A stretch of 64,000 bases of DNA, from positions 49,798,464 to 49,862,463 of the forward strand of contig NC_043011.1 of NCBI RefSeq assembly GCF_006345805.1, in the 5' to 3' direction. Of the stretch, positions 1 through 48,000 are shown piece after piece. Made by a program: the position numbers. Numbering within the stretch: the first letter of the stretch is position 1; the number at the start of each line of letters is the position of its first letter. This DNA comes from Octopus sinensis (Eukaryota).

Positions 1-3000
1 ATAGGCCGATAGATTCATCAGTAAGAACAGCCAGATCGGAGCAGATATTTACACGAGGCACTTCTATCACTGCCTCGGCCAATATCTGACCTAAAATTTT
101 AATTTTCAAATCATCGCACTCGCGCCAAATTTATCGGCAGGCAAATATAAGCCGCCGATTCCATTACGGATAAATTTGGCGCGAGTGCGATGATTTTAAA
201 ATTTTAGGTCAGATATTGCCGAGGCAGTGATAGAGTGCCTCGTGTAAATATCTGCTCCGATCTGGCTGTTCTTACTGATGAATCTATCGGCCTATGGAAG
301 ACTAGCTTGATTTAATTTAATCAGGTTAGTTTACCATTAAACAATAGAATGAAACGGTGCATCGATAAGAACTACAAGGTTTATGTTAATGTTTTTTTAA
401 TTTTCTCCTGGTTTGCGGATTAATGTTTTTTTGCGGTTGAAGCTTTGGCTGTTATTTCTAGTGGGTGAATGGCCTATTATGGCCGTTCCTTGATTTTGAT
501 GTTGAATTTATAAATGGTCTATGACTATTTAATTTTTTCCCACTAGGCCGCTGGTGGCAAAAAAATTCTACGAATTTTTTTGCCACCCTATATTGATTAA
601 TTATGAATTTTCTGGTTAATTCCGTAAATGGAATCGGCGGCTTATATTTGCTGCCGATAAATTTGGCGCGAGTGCGATGATTTGAAAATCTTAGGTCAGA
701 TATTGCCGAGGCAGTGATAGAAGTGCCTCGTGTAAATATCTGCTCCGATCTGGCTGTTTTCTTATGATGAAATCCATCGGCCTTTGGAAGACTAGCTTGA
801 TTTAATTAATCAGGTTAGTTTACCATAAACAATAGATGAAACGGTGCATCGTATAAGGAACTACAAGGTAAATGTTTTTTTAATTTTCTCCTGGTTTGCG
901 GAATTAATGTTGTTTTGCGGTTGAAGCTTTGGCTGTTATTTCTAGTGGGTGAATGGCCTATTATGGCCGTTCCTTGATTTTGATGTTGAATTTATAAATG
1001 GTCTATGACTATTTAATTTTTTTCCCACTAGGCCGCTGGTGGCAAAAAAATTCTACGAAATTTTTTGCCACCCTATATTGATTAATTATATATATATATA
1101 TATATATATATATATATATAATATATATATATATATATATGCGCATACGTACACTTTGGTCCCACACCCTCTCTCTCTATCTCTGTCTCTCTCTCTACAT
1201 ACACATATATATATATACACATATATATAGTGTGTTTTGAATGGCACAACAATGCACTATAATAACAACAATGGACTCTAATAACTGTTATAATTTAATC
1301 ATCCATAGTCTGATGTAATGTTTCGGAATATAAAACTTCCTTCTTCAGATATCCCTAGGAATAGATCGAGTCACTGCTATAATCGGTTTTCCAACGTTTT
1401 TTTTTTCTCTCCGAAAATGTCTCTGCAGTGGTCTCTCGAAGCTCGTTCCGGAATTCCTCGGTCAATTCCTAGGGATATCTGAAGAAGGAATTTTTGCATT
1501 TCAAAATATCATATCAGACTATGGACGATTAAATTACAACAGTTATTATAGTCCATTGTTTATATTATAGGGCATTGTTGTGTCATTCAAAACATTTTAT
1601 TCTTTACAAACAATACACAATGCTTCAAGCGAACTACGATACTTTCCTATATACATATATGTATGTATGTATATATATATATATATATATATATATATAT
1701 ATATATATATAATATATATATAGGAGACTATTGTAGTTTGCTACATACATGTATATGCATGTTGTATGTATGTATGTATGTATGTATATATCTTTCTGTC
1801 TTTACTCTCATCTCTCACTCGTTCTCTCTCTCTCTCTTTCTCCCCCTCTCTCTCTGTATATATATATAATGTATATATATATATATAATTATAAATTTTC
1901 TTTAGAAAAGCATAGAAAGGATGGAAGTACTCGAGTCAAATCCGACACGCTAGACAAGTACAAGAGATACAGAGAAGTTCCACTCAGGAGACTACGATTG
2001 GTGTATACATATACGGATTTAATATGATAGAATTGTCTAAAACATTCGGAATATAAAGATATAGAAATATAAGAATATATATGAAAGTTAAAATTATGCA
2101 AGGACAAATTATTAAGAGGGCTGTTGGGAGTTTTGTATTTTTAAAATTTTTTAAAAATTATAACCAAGTGGCAATTTAACTTTGTACTATAGTACAGCGA
2201 TATAGTAGAACGTTGTACAATGATATATTACCACTTGGTTATAATTTGAAAAATAAAGCACTCCCAACAGCTTTCTTAATAATTTTCATAACTTGTATGA
2301 CACTTGTATAAAACATAAATCAATACTTGCAGAACAATTCAATACATTTCTAGCGCAAACACTATTCTTTTCTTTTTCCCTGATGATGGGAACATTCCTT
2401 GAATGTACTCTAGAAACGATTTTCGGAATACTTCATTTCCTTTAAATATGGTACCAAAAACTCTTTTTAAACATCTATTATTTCTTCCATTCCATAATTT
2501 ATTTTGAAGTTTTAAAAGAAATATCTTTCTATATTTCATTATTCTTCTCTATATTTTTATTTATACCCTGTCATATTTATATATCTATATATTTATTTGT
2601 CCCTGCATATTTCTAACATTCAACTACATTTTTATATTTCTATATCTTTACATTCTGAATGTATTAATATATGTCTTAGACAATTCTATCATATTAAATT
2701 CGCATATTTATACACCAATCGTATCTGCTTGAGTGGAACTTTTCTGTATCTCTTGTACTGATATATATATATATATATATATATATATATATATATATAT
2801 ATATAGCAAAATTATCATTATATATATATATATAATATATGTATATATATATATATATGGCAAAATTATCATATAATATATTATATATATATATATAATA
2901 TATATATGGAGATTTTACGAAAAACAAGAGACGAAGACAGGTGGTGTACAAAACAAACAGATGTATTAGTATAACGCTCAGGTCAAAAGAAACGTCTTTT

Positions 3001-45000: not shown

Positions 45001-48000
45001 ATATGTATACATACATACATACACACTCACACATATACATATACATAGAGGGTGCAATGGGTAAGTTGTCGTTATTTTATATTTTTAATTTCGGATACTT
45101 ATTAATCAGCTCTCATATATATATATATCTTAAAGCCTCCAATTCTGTGCCATACGAACAGCTCATGGCCAAACTCTATGCAGTGGGTACGAAATATGAT
45201 GGGCATTCTCGGTTGCGTAGTATCGATCGCAACAGTTGACCTACTTGCGCGTACAAATGCAAGTTCCCACGGCTTTATCGATCGCATTCTCACCTGGAAT
45301 CGGATTTTGTAATTTTTAAAGACTTATACACGCCCTGTTACCGTTAGTATCTATACATCAAATTTGAGCGCAATCGGATGGAGGATGCCCGAGATCCTAG
45401 AAGGCACACACACAGACAAATGGAACGGATTTTATATATATATACATATAATATATAATATAATATGCATATATATATGTATATATATATATATATATAT
45501 ATATTATATATAATATGCATATGTATATATAGGCATATATGTAGATGTATGTATATATATATATATATATATATATATATATATATGCATGTGTATTAAT
45601 GTGTATATGAAAAACACTCACGTATTCATATGTTCAGACATTTACAAATTGTTTTCGTTTTCTTCCTTTCTCCGTCCGTCTGTGTTTAGACGCCGTGAAT
45701 ATATAACACAATGCTGCAGAGAGTGTTTATAGAACCAACAAACGGAAGTTGCTCTTTCAATCAAATGGAACAGACAATAATATGTTTTTAGAGAATAATG
45801 TTTACTACTTGTCTCTAATTGAAACTATATGAGACATTACATGTATATATATATATATATATATATATATATATATATATATTATATATATATATATATA
45901 TATATATATATATATATATATATATATATATATATGTGACCGCGTGTGTACCGTTGGCGATTTTTTTCCCTCTGTCTTCCATTCTCTGAATATTTCCTTC
46001 TCCTATGTTTCCGACGAACAGCTCCGCTGGAAACGTTAAACCCTCCTTCTTTCCTTCTTTCCTGAGCGTCCAATAATACTATGTTTGTTCCACGTCCTCG
46101 CGTTGTTTTTTTTTTTGTGCTTTCATGTTTGGATTAACTATATATATATATATATATATATATATTATATATATATATATATATATATGTATGTATGTAT
46201 GTATGTATGTATGTGTGTATGTATGTATGTGTATATATATATATATATATATATATATTATATATATATATATATATGTATGTATGTATGTGTGTATGTA
46301 TGTATGTGTGTATATATATATATATATAATATATATATATATATTATATATATATATATATATATATATATGTTTATGTTTTTTTTTTTCAGCTCAGAGC
46401 TGCGGCCATAGATGGATACATACATATATACGTCGAAGCACACACACACACCCGGTGCATATACAAGCACCGACACATATTTACACCCACACGCTCTGAC
46501 ATGTACACAGGCTAGCGCGCGAACGCACGCGCGCATACACACATACATATACGGACACATACACACACACATACACACGCACACGAACATACACAAACAC
46601 ACATTCAAGGGTTGGACAAAAGAATGGAAACACCTAGCATCATTACATCATAATTTTGAAATATCTATAAAACCGTAAAAAATCTTATTTAATTTTGTTT
46701 TTTGATTCATTATTAGTGTTGCTTATTATGTTTTGCTAAAATTGCTGTTTCTTTTCAGTTGTAATCAGAAAAAGGTAATTGAAATTCATTAAAATGACAG
46801 ATCTATCGGACTTTCAAAGAGGTCAAATTGTTGGTGCTCTATGGCAGGCGCTAGCGTAACAAAAATAGCCGAAATGTTTGGTGTATCAAGAAGTTCTGTC
46901 TCGAAAGTAATGACATCCTTTGAGAAAGAGGGACCGTCGAACTCCTACGCGAATTGTTAAAAAGCATCACAAAAGTACAGCTCCCAAAATTACTGCAGAG
47001 CTTAATGACCACCTCGAGTTTCCCGTGCGCTGTACAAAGCTGGATTTCACGGGAGGGCTGCAATCAGAAAACCACTACTTTCATAAACAGGCATTGCAAA
47101 GCATTTAGAGTGGAGTAAAAACCTATACAATTGGTCCCTAGGGCAGTGGAAGAATGTTATTTTCTCAGGCGAGTCATCCTTTATCTCATTTTCGACCACC
47201 GGCTAAGTATACGTGTGGAAACTGTCTTCTTCCAACTGTTAAGCATGGAGGAGGATCTGTGATGATATGAGGGGCTATATATTGGAAATCCGCCGGCCTG
47301 ATGGTTTCCTTTCATGGCAGAACTAATAGTCAAGACTATTTAAGCATTTTATCTCATCAAATTCATTCTATGGTTGCGGAACTGTTTCCGGAGGGAAACA
47401 CAATCTTTCAGGATGATAATGCACCAATTCACTCAGCTAAAGTTGTTACTGAATGGCACGAAGAACATTCTAGTGATGTTGAACATCTTATCTGGCCACC
47501 ACAGTCCCTAGATCTGAATATTATTGAACCTTTATTGTGCATTTTAGAAAAACAATTAATGAGTCAATATCATCATCACTACAAGAAGTGGAGACTATTT
47601 TAGCTGAAGAATTGACAAATACTCCTTTAACAATTCAGATTTTGTACGAGTCCATACCTCGTAGAATTCTAGGTGTAATTACTGCCAAAGGCGTTCCTAT
47701 CCCATGTTAGAATAAATTTGCTTAAAATTTTCAGAAAGGACAATTGAGTGTTGTTAAAATCAATTTTTGTCGACTCCACTATAATAAATTATGTCAAGAT
47801 GGTATACATACCAGGTGTGGCTGTGTGGTAAGTAGCTTGCTAACCAACCACGTGGTTCCGGGTTCAGTCCCACTGCGTGGCATCTTGGGCAAGTGTCTTC
47901 TGCTATAGCCTCGGGCCGACCAAAACCTTGTGAGTGGATTTGGTAGACGGAAACTGAAAGAAGCCCGTCGTATATATGTATATATATATATATGCGTGTG

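What the first reader, a model, noticed from the sequence alone, without database searches (positions are those of the whole stretch)
1..46139. A diverse set of hammerhead-ribozyme mini-retroelements living in (TA)n microsatellites
Seen: about 13 type I HHR motifs (268, 756, 1312, 1474, 2376, 2995, 7488, 7953, 10261, 21679, 22618, 27166, 30189, 46007) with mostly unrelated stems. They lie in ORF-less 0.15-1.1 kb elements, most flanked by (TA)n, and several have an inverted 5' arm and tandem repeats. Established: Penelope-like elements carry minimal type I HHRs with palindromic stem III in their pseudo-LTRs and often integrate with 5' inversions; retrozymes are non-autonomous HHR elements that yield circular RNAs. 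Inference: roughly nine independent non-autonomous families use Penelope RT/GIY-YIG in trans and target TA tracts. I am not aware of a description of this in cephalopods, but cannot check.
Basis: partly seen in the sequence, partly recalled or inferred. Interest (0 to 1): 0.9.

Follow-up and report, generated by a model that had tools for sequence, protein, structure and literature searches.

The report
Hammerhead ribozyme mini-retroelements in TA repeats
Most of the reported small self-cleaving-RNA (hammerhead) motifs are real, and they sit in short, gene-less, Penelope-type retroelement copies inserted into TA repeats, which is a known kind of element and not a new one.

Summary
The observation largely holds. 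My own type I hammerhead (HHR) descriptors find far more motifs than chance. The strict form finds 3, against 0.11 per dinucleotide shuffle. The minimal-HHR form with a palindromic helix III finds 5, against 0.05.

- 2 are perfect: 7488 and 27166.
- 5 pass low-background descriptors with one core lesion or none: 268, 756, 1474, 2995(-), 46007.
- 2 have an intact core but imperfect helices: 7953 and 22618.
- 3 are decayed paralogues: 1312(-), 10261, 21679(-).
- 2 are unsupported: 2376 and 30189.

They fall into about 8 sequence families with unrelated stems. The motifs carry the published hallmarks of Penelope-like-element (PLE) minimal HHRs (PMC4209133). These are a bulged base after A9, a palindromic helix III and pairs on opposite strands. 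The elements show partial tandems, inverted 5' arms and (TA)n flanks at 7 of 9 loci. One copy is nested in the TA tract inside a SINE.

Non-autonomy is shown only for two ORF-less tandem families, with units of 488 and about 590 bp. Use of a PLE enzyme in trans is inference, and the window has no PLE ORF. (TA)n targeting, minimal HHRs and PLE-derived retrozymes are all already published. This is a new member of a known kind.

The parts
1..1086 (+). Family A. Inverted 5' arm (about 1-145, cut by the window start), then two tandem units of about 488 bp. It ends at (TA)n 1087-1140.
   Evidence: 1-295 is a palindrome at 87.7% over 308 nt, and 169-604 matches 656-1089 at 94.4%. Sequence read. No Pfam domain in its 115-aa frame.
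268..372 (+). Family A HHR, copy 1. The core CUGAUGA and GAAA are intact. Helix I is 7 bp and the helix II domain is about 70 nt. Helix III is a 10-nt self-complementary stretch. U16.1 is absent. Predicted cleavage is after 365.
   Evidence: signature hit; shuffle mean 0.033. In one search the MFE fold forms helices I and II. Rfam gives no hammerhead hit.
758..860 (+). Family A HHR, copy 2. C3 is missing and there is a bulged A after A9. Helix III is a 12-nt self-complementary stretch closed by A and U. Helix I is 7 bp. Predicted cleavage is after 853, which is 488 nt from copy 1.
1233..1597 (.). Family B. Two head-to-head copies, with an HHR in each arm and the 3' tails pointing outward. It lies between TA tracts 1206-1217 and 1670-1711.
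   Evidence: 1233-1370 matches 1594-1457 at 87.7%..
1474..1515 (+). Family B HHR, right arm. All three helices are present, with a bulged A and an AUAU helix III. G12 is changed to A.
1312..1353 (-). Family B HHR, left arm. The core boxes are intact. Helices III and I are broken by substitutions relative to the right arm.
   Evidence: relaxed hit on this core. Comparison of the two arms by eye.
2898..3114 (-). Family D, copy 1, between TA tracts. Its HHR is at 2995-3031 (A6 changed to U, bulged A, ACGU helix III, helix I 5 bp).
6993..7883 (+). Family E. Inverted arm 6990-7116, partial upstream unit 7117-7295, and a full unit of about 590 bp ending at 7883. It lies between (TA)n 6949-6992 and 7884-7905.
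   Evidence: arms 97.6% over 127 nt. The pseudo-LTR 7117-7295 matches 7705-7888 at 93.5%. Direct-repeat spacing is 587-593 nt.
7488..7585 (+). Family E HHR. It fits the descriptor perfectly: GUC cleavage site, helix I 6 bp, a self-complementary 8-nt helix III, and a 63-nt insertion in helix II.
   Evidence: Rfam Hammerhead_1 scores 21.4 bits, E = 0.018. The dimer fold forms a double hammerhead at -51.6 against -42.2 kcal/mol for two monomers.
7906..8285 (+). Family F element between TA tracts. Its HHR is at 7953-8027 (core CUGAUGAG...CGAAAC, helix II 5 bp plus extension, helix III 3 bp, helix I 4 of 5 pairs).
   Evidence: Rfam gives no hit at E of 10 or less.
10243..10406 (+). Family D, copy 2. 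It is nested in the internal (TA)n(TG)n of a SINE copy that spans 10060-10863. The HHR relic at 10261-10298 has two core changes.
   Evidence: 10646-10863 matches the SINE 3' half at about 71%.
21612..21800 (-). Family G, inverted copy. The decayed HHR at 21679-21724 has A9 changed to G, G12 changed to A and a helix II mismatch. It keeps the ACGU helix III.
   Evidence: 21616-21820 matches 22726-22537 at 81.0%..
22537..22726 (+). Family G, direct copy. Its HHR is at 22618-22663 (core intact, bulged A, helix II 5 bp, helix I 5 bp, helix III reduced to 1 bp). It is flanked by (AAT)n, not (TA)n.
27107..27292 (+). Family H. A 28-nt inverted copy of the 3' end sits at 27107-27134. The direct 3' end is at 27265-27292. 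The region is TA-rich.
   Evidence: Read directly..
27166..27208 (+). Family H HHR. It is a perfect 43-nt minimal type I HHR with helix I 4 bp, helix II 5 bp and the 8-nt palindrome ACAAUUGU as helix III.
   Evidence: The dimer fold scores -24.0 against -15.0 kcal/mol. Rfam gives no hit at E of 10 or less.
36390..36470 (-). 5'-truncated copy of family H. Only the 3' part is present, with no HHR. It abuts (TA)n 36253-36388.
   Evidence: 27222-27453 matches 36471-36249 at 75%..
30189..30235 (+). Family I, a possible HHR relic. It has the core CUGAAGA, a bulged G, a 4-bp helix II and the palindrome AGAUAUCU, but no proper helix I. It lies beside a SINE and has no TA flank.
   Evidence: Manual reading. 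None of my descriptors returned it.
45936..46138 (+). Family D, copy 3, between (TA)n 45844-45935 and 46139-46188. Its HHR is at 46007-46041 (U4 changed to C, bulged A, ACGU helix III).
1888..2761 (.). I do not accept this motif as an HHR.
   Evidence: arms 1957-2109 and 2759-2595 at 81.9%; relaxed hit only, helix III 1 bp.

Best explanation
The first 46 kb hold copies of about eight unrelated families of short (0.15-1.1 kb), ORF-less retroelement sequences of the Penelope-like (PLE) type. Each carries a PLE-style minimal type I hammerhead ribozyme 70-300 nt upstream of its 3' end.

SHOWN HERE
- The motifs are real and far above chance.
- They have the minimal-HHR signature.
- The copies have PLE-style anatomy: partial tandems that form pseudo-LTRs, inverted 5' copies, and 5' truncation.
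- They sit in (TA)n tracts. One insertion lies inside a SINE's own TA tract.
- Two families (A with a 488-bp unit, E with a unit of about 590 bp) are complete ORF-less units. They are therefore non-autonomous and retrozyme-like.

INFERRED FROM THE LITERATURE
- A PLE reverse transcriptase with a GIY-YIG endonuclease, supplied in trans, nicks (TA)n and copies the element RNA by target-primed reverse transcription.
- Priming on both strands would explain the inverted arms.
- More-than-unit templates would explain the tandems.
- The hammerheads have a helix III too short for a monomer. They would pair as dimers in multimeric transcripts and cut out unit-length RNA.

STATE OF THE COPIES
- Most copies are old. 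Arms and paralogues are 74-94% identical, and 8 of 13 accepted motifs (11 plus the 2 relaxed-only) have a core lesion.
- The two youngest-looking copies keep perfect ribozymes. E has arms 97.6% identical and H has perfect 28-nt arms.
For: - Enrichment: 3 against 0.11, 10 against 1.24, 5 against 0.05 and 2 against 0.033. Scrambled-core controls give 0-1 strict and 0-4 relaxed.
- Minimal-HHR hallmarks listed in PMC4209133 that my strict descriptor did not ask for:
  - A nucleotide between A9 and 10.1 in families B, D, G, I and in A copy 2.
  - A self-complementary helix III in A, B, D, E, H, I and G copy 2.
  - Opposite-strand pairs in B and G.
- Predicted dimers of 7488 and 27166 form the double-hammerhead fold and are 9 kcal/mol better than two monomers.
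- PLE anatomy: inverted arm plus pseudo-LTR in E and A; head-to-head copies in B, G and H; a 5'-truncated H copy.
- TA target: 7 of 9 loci lie in gaps of 900 bp or less between TA tracts, which hold 23.6% of non-TA bases. The binomial P is 9e-4, with a threshold chosen after the fact.
- Filled against empty SINE site.
- Within-family changes that keep pairing. Helix II pair 10.1-11.1 is G-C in D copies 1 and 2 and C-G in D copy 3. A U insertion in the 5' strand of helix I in A copy 2 faces a G insertion in the 3' strand.
- Literature: (TA)n preference and tandem or inverted insertions of PLEs (PMC8557442). A PLE enzyme cleaves and extends both strands (PMC11167929). Retrozymes are read as PLE derivatives (PMC7229834; bioRxiv 10.64898/2026.07.22.740005).
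Against: - Rfam supports only 1 motif, and below its gathering score.
- Only 2 of the 14 positions pass an unrelaxed descriptor.
- 8 of 13 accepted motifs carry a lesion at a conserved core position. Activity of those copies is unlikely, and it is untested for all copies.
- No PLE RT or GIY-YIG ORF lies in the window. No PLE whose pseudo-LTR matches any family could be looked for, because no eukaryotic DNA collection was on hand.
- Six families have no tandem junction, so their full length is unknown.
- Family G sits in (AAT)n. Family I is not in a microsatellite.
- The inverted arm of E ends 124 nt short of the 3' end, which the simple model does not predict.
- The TA-gap test uses a post hoc threshold on 9 loci in one window.
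- In vitro, HHR mutants did not affect insertion by a PLE enzyme (PMC11167929). The role of the ribozyme in mobility is therefore open.
Confidence: 0.72

Rival explanations
1. All of these are only 5'-truncated or solo pseudo-LTR remnants of ordinary autonomous Penelope-like elements. On this view there are no dedicated non-autonomous families.
For: - PMC4209133 states that most minimal HHRs occur as single motifs 'probably related to truncated PLEs'.
- The three D copies have 20, 71 and 83 nt upstream of the HHR, which suggests variable 5' truncation.
- An H copy is 5'-truncated.
- Six of eight families show no tandem junction in the window.
Against: - Families A and E show a junction from 3' end to 5' start that defines complete units of 488 and about 590 bp. 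These units have no ORF or Pfam domain.
- A carries one HHR per unit, in tandem. That is the published retrozyme layout (PMC7229834).
Confidence: 0.2
2. The elements are TA-targeting DNA transposon derivatives (Tc1/mariner-type MITEs or foldback elements). Their terminal inverted repeats explain the 'inverted arms', and the hammerhead-like motifs are incidental.
For: - H looks like a 186-bp element with perfect 28-nt terminal inverted repeats in TA-rich DNA.
- B and the 1888-2761 element are foldbacks.
- A DDE_3 transposase fragment lies at 47271-47600.
- Tc1/mariner elements duplicate TA on insertion. This point is recalled, not taken from a call.
Against: - In E and A the inverted arm matches an internal or 5' part of the unit, not both termini. 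Direct partial tandems are also present.
- Arm length ranges from 28 to 295 nt.
- One H copy lacks the left arm.
- The HHR always points toward the outer 3' end. In B and G each arm carries its own HHR, as expected for two copies lying head to head.
- Motif enrichment cannot be incidental.
Confidence: 0.05
3. The motifs are chance matches in AT-rich, repeat-rich DNA.
For: - Rfam finds nothing at gathering score.
- The relaxed descriptor expects about 1.2 hits per window. This can account for 2376 and for the extra relaxed hits at 3252-3390(-), 22155 and 43524.
- Low-complexity DNA gives false signature hits at 13718-13733.
Against: - 0 of 100 shuffles reach the observed counts for the strict, relaxed or palindromic descriptors.
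- Scrambled cores on the real sequence give 0-1 where the true core gives 3-5.
- The hits share features that the descriptor did not ask for.
Confidence: 0.02

Closest known systems
Minimal type I hammerheads of Penelope-like elements (min-HHR; Cervera and de la Pena 2014, PMC4209133)
   Same: - Type I topology, with a short helix I of 4-7 bp.
- An unpaired nucleotide between A9 and 10.1.
- A self-complementary helix III that calls for a dimer.
- Extreme stem diversity between families within one genome.
- Mostly solitary motifs, or pairs on opposite strands 100-700 bp apart.
   Different: - Three families (A, E, F) have a very long helix II domain, with insertions of 40-70 nt.
- H and A lack the G10.1-C11.1 pair.
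- No full PLE with these motifs in its pseudo-LTRs was seen here.
- No cleavage data exist for these motifs.
Non-LTR retrozymes of animals (Cervera and de la Pena 2020, PMC7229834; Li et al. 2026 preprint, 10.64898/2026.07.22.740005)
   Same: - ORF-less, low-GC tandem units carrying one type I HHR per unit. Family A has two units with predicted cleavage sites 488 nt apart.
- They are proposed to be non-autonomous PLE derivatives.
   Different: - Published retrozymes mostly carry canonical HHRs with loop-loop contacts and occur as dimers up to long multimers. Here the HHRs are of the minimal type and the arrays reach 2 units at most.
- Here the copies have inverted 5' arms and sit in (TA)n.
- Circular RNA was not examined.
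Penelope-like elements with a (TA)n insertion preference (Neptune, Naiad; Craig et al. 2021, PMC8557442)
   Same: - (TA)n microsatellite targets that hide target-site duplications.
- Partial tandems that form pseudo-LTRs.
- An inverted 5'-truncated copy upstream.
   Different: - Naiads lack canonical HHRs, and according to that paper they are only old remnants in cephalopods.
- The elements here have HHRs and no RT or EN ORF.

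Membership tests
PLE-type minimal type I hammerhead (PMC4209133) | Conserved core: C3 U4 G5 A6 N7 G8 A9, G12 A13 A14, A15.1-U16.1, H17 not G | tested here: met
   The core is fully intact in 5 of the 13 accepted motifs: 7488, 27166, 7953, 22618 and 1312(-). Six motifs have one lesion: 268, 756, 1474, 2995(-), 46007 and 30189 (here the helix, not the core). 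Two have two or more lesions: 10261 and 21679(-)..
PLE-type minimal type I hammerhead (PMC4209133) | Type I topology: helix I open, helices II and III closed | tested here: met
   All descriptor hits have this topology. Type II and type III descriptors were not run.
PLE-type minimal type I hammerhead (PMC4209133) | [quoted passage not shown] | tested here: met
   Present in B, D (3 of 3 copies), G, I and A copy 2. Absent in E, F, H and A copy 1.
PLE-type minimal type I hammerhead (PMC4209133) | Palindromic 15.2-16.2 and loop 3, giving a helix III that works as a dimer | tested here: met
   All 5 hits are fully self-complementary, and both A copies are too. F is not.
PLE-type minimal type I hammerhead (PMC4209133) | Self-cleavage at H17 | not testable with these tools
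   This needs in vitro transcription of monomer and dimer constructs.
Rfam RF00163 Hammerhead_1 | Score at or above the gathering threshold of 34 bits | tested here: not met
   0 hits at gathering score. The best score is 21.4 bits, at 7488-7585. Nothing at E of 10 or less appears.
Penelope-like element insertion | Partial tandem (pseudo-LTR), an inverted 5'-truncated copy, or both | tested here: met
   A and E have both features. B, G and H have inverted copies.
Penelope-like element insertion | ORF with a telomerase-like RT and a GIY-YIG endonuclease | tested here: not met
   No such ORF is in the window. The only protein hits are zf-RVT at 39592-40077 and DDE_3 at 47271-47600. In all, 15 different frames were scanned against Pfam over, out of 129 non-low-complexity frames of 70 aa or more. 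The elements are therefore non-autonomous or truncated, not PLEs proper.
Penelope-like element insertion | 30-40 bp 'tail' at one end | not tested
   This needs many copies per family to define the ends.
Non-LTR retrozyme (PMC7229834) | Head-to-tail repeats of a few hundred bp, each with a type I HHR, low GC and no ORF | tested here: met
   This applies to family A only: 2 units at 94.4% identity, HHRs 488 nt apart, and GC 0.34 in 1-2000. E has about 1.3 units and one HHR. The other families are single copies.
Non-LTR retrozyme (PMC7229834) | Expression as unit-length circular RNA | not testable with these tools
   No transcriptome is on hand.
Tc1/mariner-type MITE | Terminal inverted repeats at both ends, with a TA duplication | tested here: inconclusive
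   H and B fit on the surface. In E and A the arm is not terminal on both sides. Duplications cannot be seen inside (TA)n.

The most novel reading that the evidence does not exclude
This genome holds a guild of many unrelated, dedicated ORF-less hammerhead mini-elements that all parasitise Penelope-type machinery and specialise on (TA)n. The internal (TA)n tract carried by an abundant SINE serves as their landing pad. The SINE expansion would then have created, and kept renewing, the niche for these elements. They in turn split and seed TA microsatellites.
Probability: 0.25. Interest if true: 0.55.

Novelty: new member of a known kind. Interest (0 to 1): 0.3.

Why it matters
The finding adds a well-resolved local example of how PLE-type hammerhead elements look and decay. 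Eight families lie within 46 kb. It includes a nested insertion that proves TA-tract targeting, and a tandem pair with retrozyme geometry.

If the window is from a cephalopod, it would extend retrozyme and minimal-HHR biology to a group where I found only a count of Rfam hammerhead loci in print. That count is 235 loci in the giant squid (PMC6962438).

It does not open a new kind of system. Minimal HHRs, (TA)n targeting and the origin of retrozymes from PLEs are all published.

Tried and rejected
RFAM
- Rfam at gathering score found nothing.
- The whole-window E-value search was swamped by microsatellite look-alikes of mir-297, mir-3149 and similar families. These are artefacts of (TA)n and (TG)n. 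Only the top 150 of 338 rows were visible, so any hammerhead rows could not be seen.
- Three regional searches followed. Only 7488 was reported.

A VERDICT I REVERSED
- I first rejected 268 and 756 as chance CUGAUGA words. That was wrong. Allowing a long helix II and one core edit recovers both.

MOTIFS I DO NOT ACCEPT
- 2376 stays rejected: helix III is 1 bp and helix II has two G-U pairs.
- The extra descriptor hits at 3286-3394(-), 22155-22276 and 43524-43631 are taken as background. The hits at 13718-13733 are low-complexity artefacts.

STEPS THAT LED NOWHERE OR WERE NOT TAKEN
- I aligned eight short HHRs with the aim of building a covariance model. MAFFT misplaced the H motif. A model trained on descriptor-picked, partly decayed motifs would be circular, so I built none.
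- A protein search with the LINE fragment, meant to place the organism, gave only unnamed records and marine-invertebrate retrotransposon relatives. The cephalopod origin stays unverified.
- No eukaryotic genome collection was available. The genome-contig collection holds bacteria and archaea only and was not used. Copy number, family consensi and autonomous partners therefore stayed unchecked.
Supplementary figs S2-S3 and table S1 of PMC4209133, and supplementary file S1 of PMC8557442, may already list mollusc or cephalopod motifs and PLE consensi. That bears on novelty.
- None found a dedicated description.
- Complex prediction, structure prediction and fold search were not relevant and were not used.

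Full report
WHAT WAS CHECKED. The window is 64,000 bases with no N and about 34% GC. It placed them in ORF-less elements of 0.15-1.1 kb, mostly flanked by (TA)n, some with inverted 5' arms and tandem repeats. It read them as about nine non-autonomous families that use Penelope-like element (PLE) enzymes.

ARE THE MOTIFS THERE AND ABOVE CHANCE? Rfam gives little support. There are no hits at gathering score in the whole window. The E-value list was swamped by microsatellite look-alikes of miRNA families. I therefore wrote a type I descriptor: helix I, CUGANGA, helix II, GAA, a helix III closed by A15.1 and U16.1, H17 not G, then the other strand of helix I.
- The strict form gives 3 hits, against a mean of 0.11 in 100 dinucleotide shuffles (max 2). 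Twelve scrambled cores run on the real sequence give 0-1.
- A relaxed form gives 10 hits against 1.24 (max 4), with scrambled cores at 0-4.
- A minimal-HHR form requires a fully self-complementary helix III, an optional extra base after A9 and at most one core mismatch. It gives 5 hits against 0.05 (max 1), with scrambled cores at 0-1.
- A signature for motifs with a very long helix II gives 2 hits against 0.033.
The motif is therefore strongly enriched. Regional Rfam searches report Hammerhead_1 only at 7488-7585, at 21.4 bits against a gathering score of 34 and E = 0.018. They report nothing for 1-3120 or 21600-30300. Rfam's model of canonical type I HHRs does not see the minimal variants.

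POSITION BY POSITION.
- Perfect: 7488-7585 has a GUC site, a 6-bp helix I, an 8-nt self-complementary helix III and a 63-nt insertion in helix II. 27166-27208 is a 43-nt textbook minimal HHR with the palindrome ACAAUUGU as helix III.
- One lesion, all helices present: 1474-1515 has G12 changed to A. 2995-3031 on the minus strand has A6 changed to U. 46007-46041 has U4 changed to C.
- 268-372 and 758-860: I first dismissed these. With a helix II domain of about 70 nt they have a 7-bp helix I and a 10- or 12-nt self-complementary helix III. Copy 1 lacks U16.1 and copy 2 lacks C3. The MFE fold of copy 1 forms helices I and II.
- Intact core, imperfect helices, relaxed descriptor only: 7953-8027 has a helix I with 4 of 5 pairs. 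22618-22663 has a helix III cut to 1 bp by a change that its paralogue lacks.
- Decayed paralogues: 1312-1353(-) is the other arm of 1474. 10261-10298 belongs to the family of 2995 and 46007. 21679-21724(-) is the other arm of 22618.
- Unsupported: 2376 is a relaxed hit with a 1-bp helix III. 30189 was returned by no descriptor. By eye it has a core, a bulge, a 4-bp helix II and the palindrome AGAUAUCU, but no proper helix I.
No further motifs appear beyond 46.1 kb. Extra relaxed hits at 3252-3390(-), 22155 and 43524 fit the background expectation.

WHAT KIND OF HAMMERHEAD? Cervera and de la Pena (PMC4209133; I read parts 1-2 of 4) describe the minimal HHRs of PLE pseudo-LTRs. [quoted passage not shown] The window's motifs show these features.
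- The extra base is present in families B, D, G, I and in A copy 2.
- Helix III is self-complementary in all families but F.
- B and G are opposite-strand pairs.
- Stems differ completely between families.
- Predicted homodimers of 7488 and 27166 adopt the double-hammerhead pairing. They score -51.6 against -42.2 and -24.0 against -15.0 kcal/mol for two monomers.

THE ELEMENTS (self-BLAST; reads).
- Family A (1-1086) has an inverted arm and then two tandem units at 94.4% identity. Each unit has an HHR. The predicted cleavage sites are 488 nt apart. It ends in (TA)n.
- Family B (1233-1597) is two head-to-head copies at 87.7% identity.
- Family D has three copies (2898-3114 minus strand, 10243-10406, 45936-46138). 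Each lies between TA tracts, with 83, 20 and 71 nt upstream of the HHR.
- Family E (6993-7883) has an inverted arm at 97.6% identity, a partial upstream unit at 93.5% and a full unit of about 590 bp.
- Family F is at 7906-8285.
- Family G is two inverted copies at 81% identity (21612-21800 and 22537-22726) around (AAT)n and other repeats.
- Family H (27107-27292) starts with a perfect 28-nt inverted copy of its own 3' end. A 5'-truncated copy without the HHR lies at 36390-36470 on the minus strand.
- Family I is at 30189.
In every case the HHR points toward the outer 3' end and lies 70-300 nt from it. No Pfam domain is found in the frames of A, B, D or G. The window holds no RT plus GIY-YIG ORF. 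It has only a zf-RVT LINE fragment and a DDE_3 transposase fragment.

TA TRACTS. (TA) runs of 6 or more units form 78 merged tracts and cover 4.3% of the window. Seven of 9 evaluable HHR loci lie in gaps of 900 bp or less between tracts. Such gaps hold 23.6% of the non-TA bases. The binomial P is 9e-4, with the threshold chosen after seeing the data. Family A touches the window edge and was left out. The clearest case is D copy 2. It sits inside the internal (TA)n(TG)n of a SINE copy whose 5' half is 10060-10242 and whose 3' half is 10646-10863. More than a dozen other copies of that SINE are uninterrupted there. This shows both mobility and TA targeting. Family G in (AAT)n and family I are exceptions.

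MECHANISM.
- Shown: the motif class, the element anatomy, the TA target, and ORF-less complete units for A and E.
- Inferred from the literature: PLEs prefer (TA)n and insert as partial tandems with inverted 5'-truncated copies (PMC8557442, passages). A purified PLE enzyme cleaves and extends both DNA strands and starts reverse transcription inside the RNA (PMC11167929, abstract and passages). That can account for the inverted arms and odd ends.
- Also inferred: animal tandem repeats with type I HHRs are read as non-autonomous, PLE-dependent retrozymes that give circular RNA (PMC7229834, passages; bioRxiv 10.64898/2026.07.22.740005, abstract and passages).
- A caution: the same enzyme study found that HHR mutants did not change insertion in vitro. 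What the ribozyme does for mobility remains open.

RIVALS.
- Truncated ends of autonomous PLEs rather than dedicated families. This cannot be excluded for six of the eight families. It is contradicted for A and E.
- TA-targeting MITEs or foldbacks. This fits H and B on the surface. It does not fit the non-terminal arms and direct tandems of E and A, the truncated H copy, or the motif enrichment.
- Pure chance. This is excluded for the core set.

NOVELTY. Everything in the interpretation has a published counterpart. For cephalopods my searches found three things. PMC8967140 reports that Penelope elements are abundant in coleoids (passages). PMC8557442 reports that Naiad PLEs are old remnants there. 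The giant squid genome paper lists 235 Hammerhead_1 loci (PMC6962438, passages). I found no dedicated description. Supplements that may list such motifs were closed, and I could not confirm that the window is from a cephalopod. I rate it a new member of a known kind, with interest 0.3.

Noticed in passing
window 8540-9400, 10060-10863, 15066-15530, 16482-16890, 18780-19033, 20130-20520, 30256-30650, 33714-34120, 34535-34940, 41621-42020, 47812-48225, 54840-55265, 57522-57965, 58980-59375: An abundant SINE-like repeat of about 400 bp, with at least 14 copies at 70-92% identity. It carries an internal (TA)n(TG)n microsatellite. 8571-9398 is an inverted pair. The SINE's own TA tract is one source of the window's many TA runs, and it is the landing site of one HHR element.
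   Followed up: partly
window 3428-3608, 5858-6507, 24873-25104, 31163-31583 (weaker: 21410-21540, 37294-37367, 38139-38246): A second repeat family with a unit of about 180 bp, partly in short tandem arrays at 88-96% identity. My HHR descriptors found nothing in it. Its nature is unknown.
   Followed up: no
window 55511-56693: A tandem array with repeat offsets of about 235 and 470 bp at 86-94% identity. No HHR hit.
   Followed up: no
window 60091-60878: An imperfect tandem array of a TG/TA-rich unit at 72-85% identity between shifted copies.
   Followed up: no
window 39176-40346 and 40777-40988: Fragments of a non-LTR retrotransposon. A zf-RVT match lies at 39592-40077 (E = 2.2e-05, below the Pfam cut-off). 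Protein relatives are in sea cucumber and coral records. 39523-39731 is repeated at 40777-40988 at 90% identity.
   Followed up: partly
window 47271-47600: A fragment of a DDE_3 (Tc1/mariner-type) transposase (Pfam E = 1.3e-09). TA-targeting DNA transposons therefore also exist in this genome.
   Followed up: partly
window 21925-22576 and 40447-40750: An (AAT)n-flanked repeat. The copy at 40.4 kb lacks about 358 bp that are present at 21992-22350, and its ends are 88-97% identical. It lies between the two inverted family G copies.
   Followed up: no
window 43445-43610 and 44637-44806: A 170-bp repeat at 90% identity. The first copy holds a weak relaxed-descriptor HHR hit (43524-43631) that I regard as background. 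An 82-aa frame at 43861-44106(-) looks like the C-terminus of an RTE-type LINE. That resemblance is recalled. Pfam found nothing.
   Followed up: no
window 3286-3394 (-): A strict-descriptor hit with a 3-bp helix II and a helix I made of low-complexity A/T/G runs. It is probably chance. The region has a paralogue at 62655-62938 at 82% identity, and I did not check that copy for the core.
   Followed up: no
whole window, e.g. 42778-42846, 17525-17591, 53842-53914: Rfam E-value matches to mir-297, mir-3149, mir-1277, mir-466 and mir-5014 (up to 58 bits, all below gathering score) fall on (TA)n, (TG)n and (TATG)n runs. They are microsatellite artefacts.
   Followed up: yes
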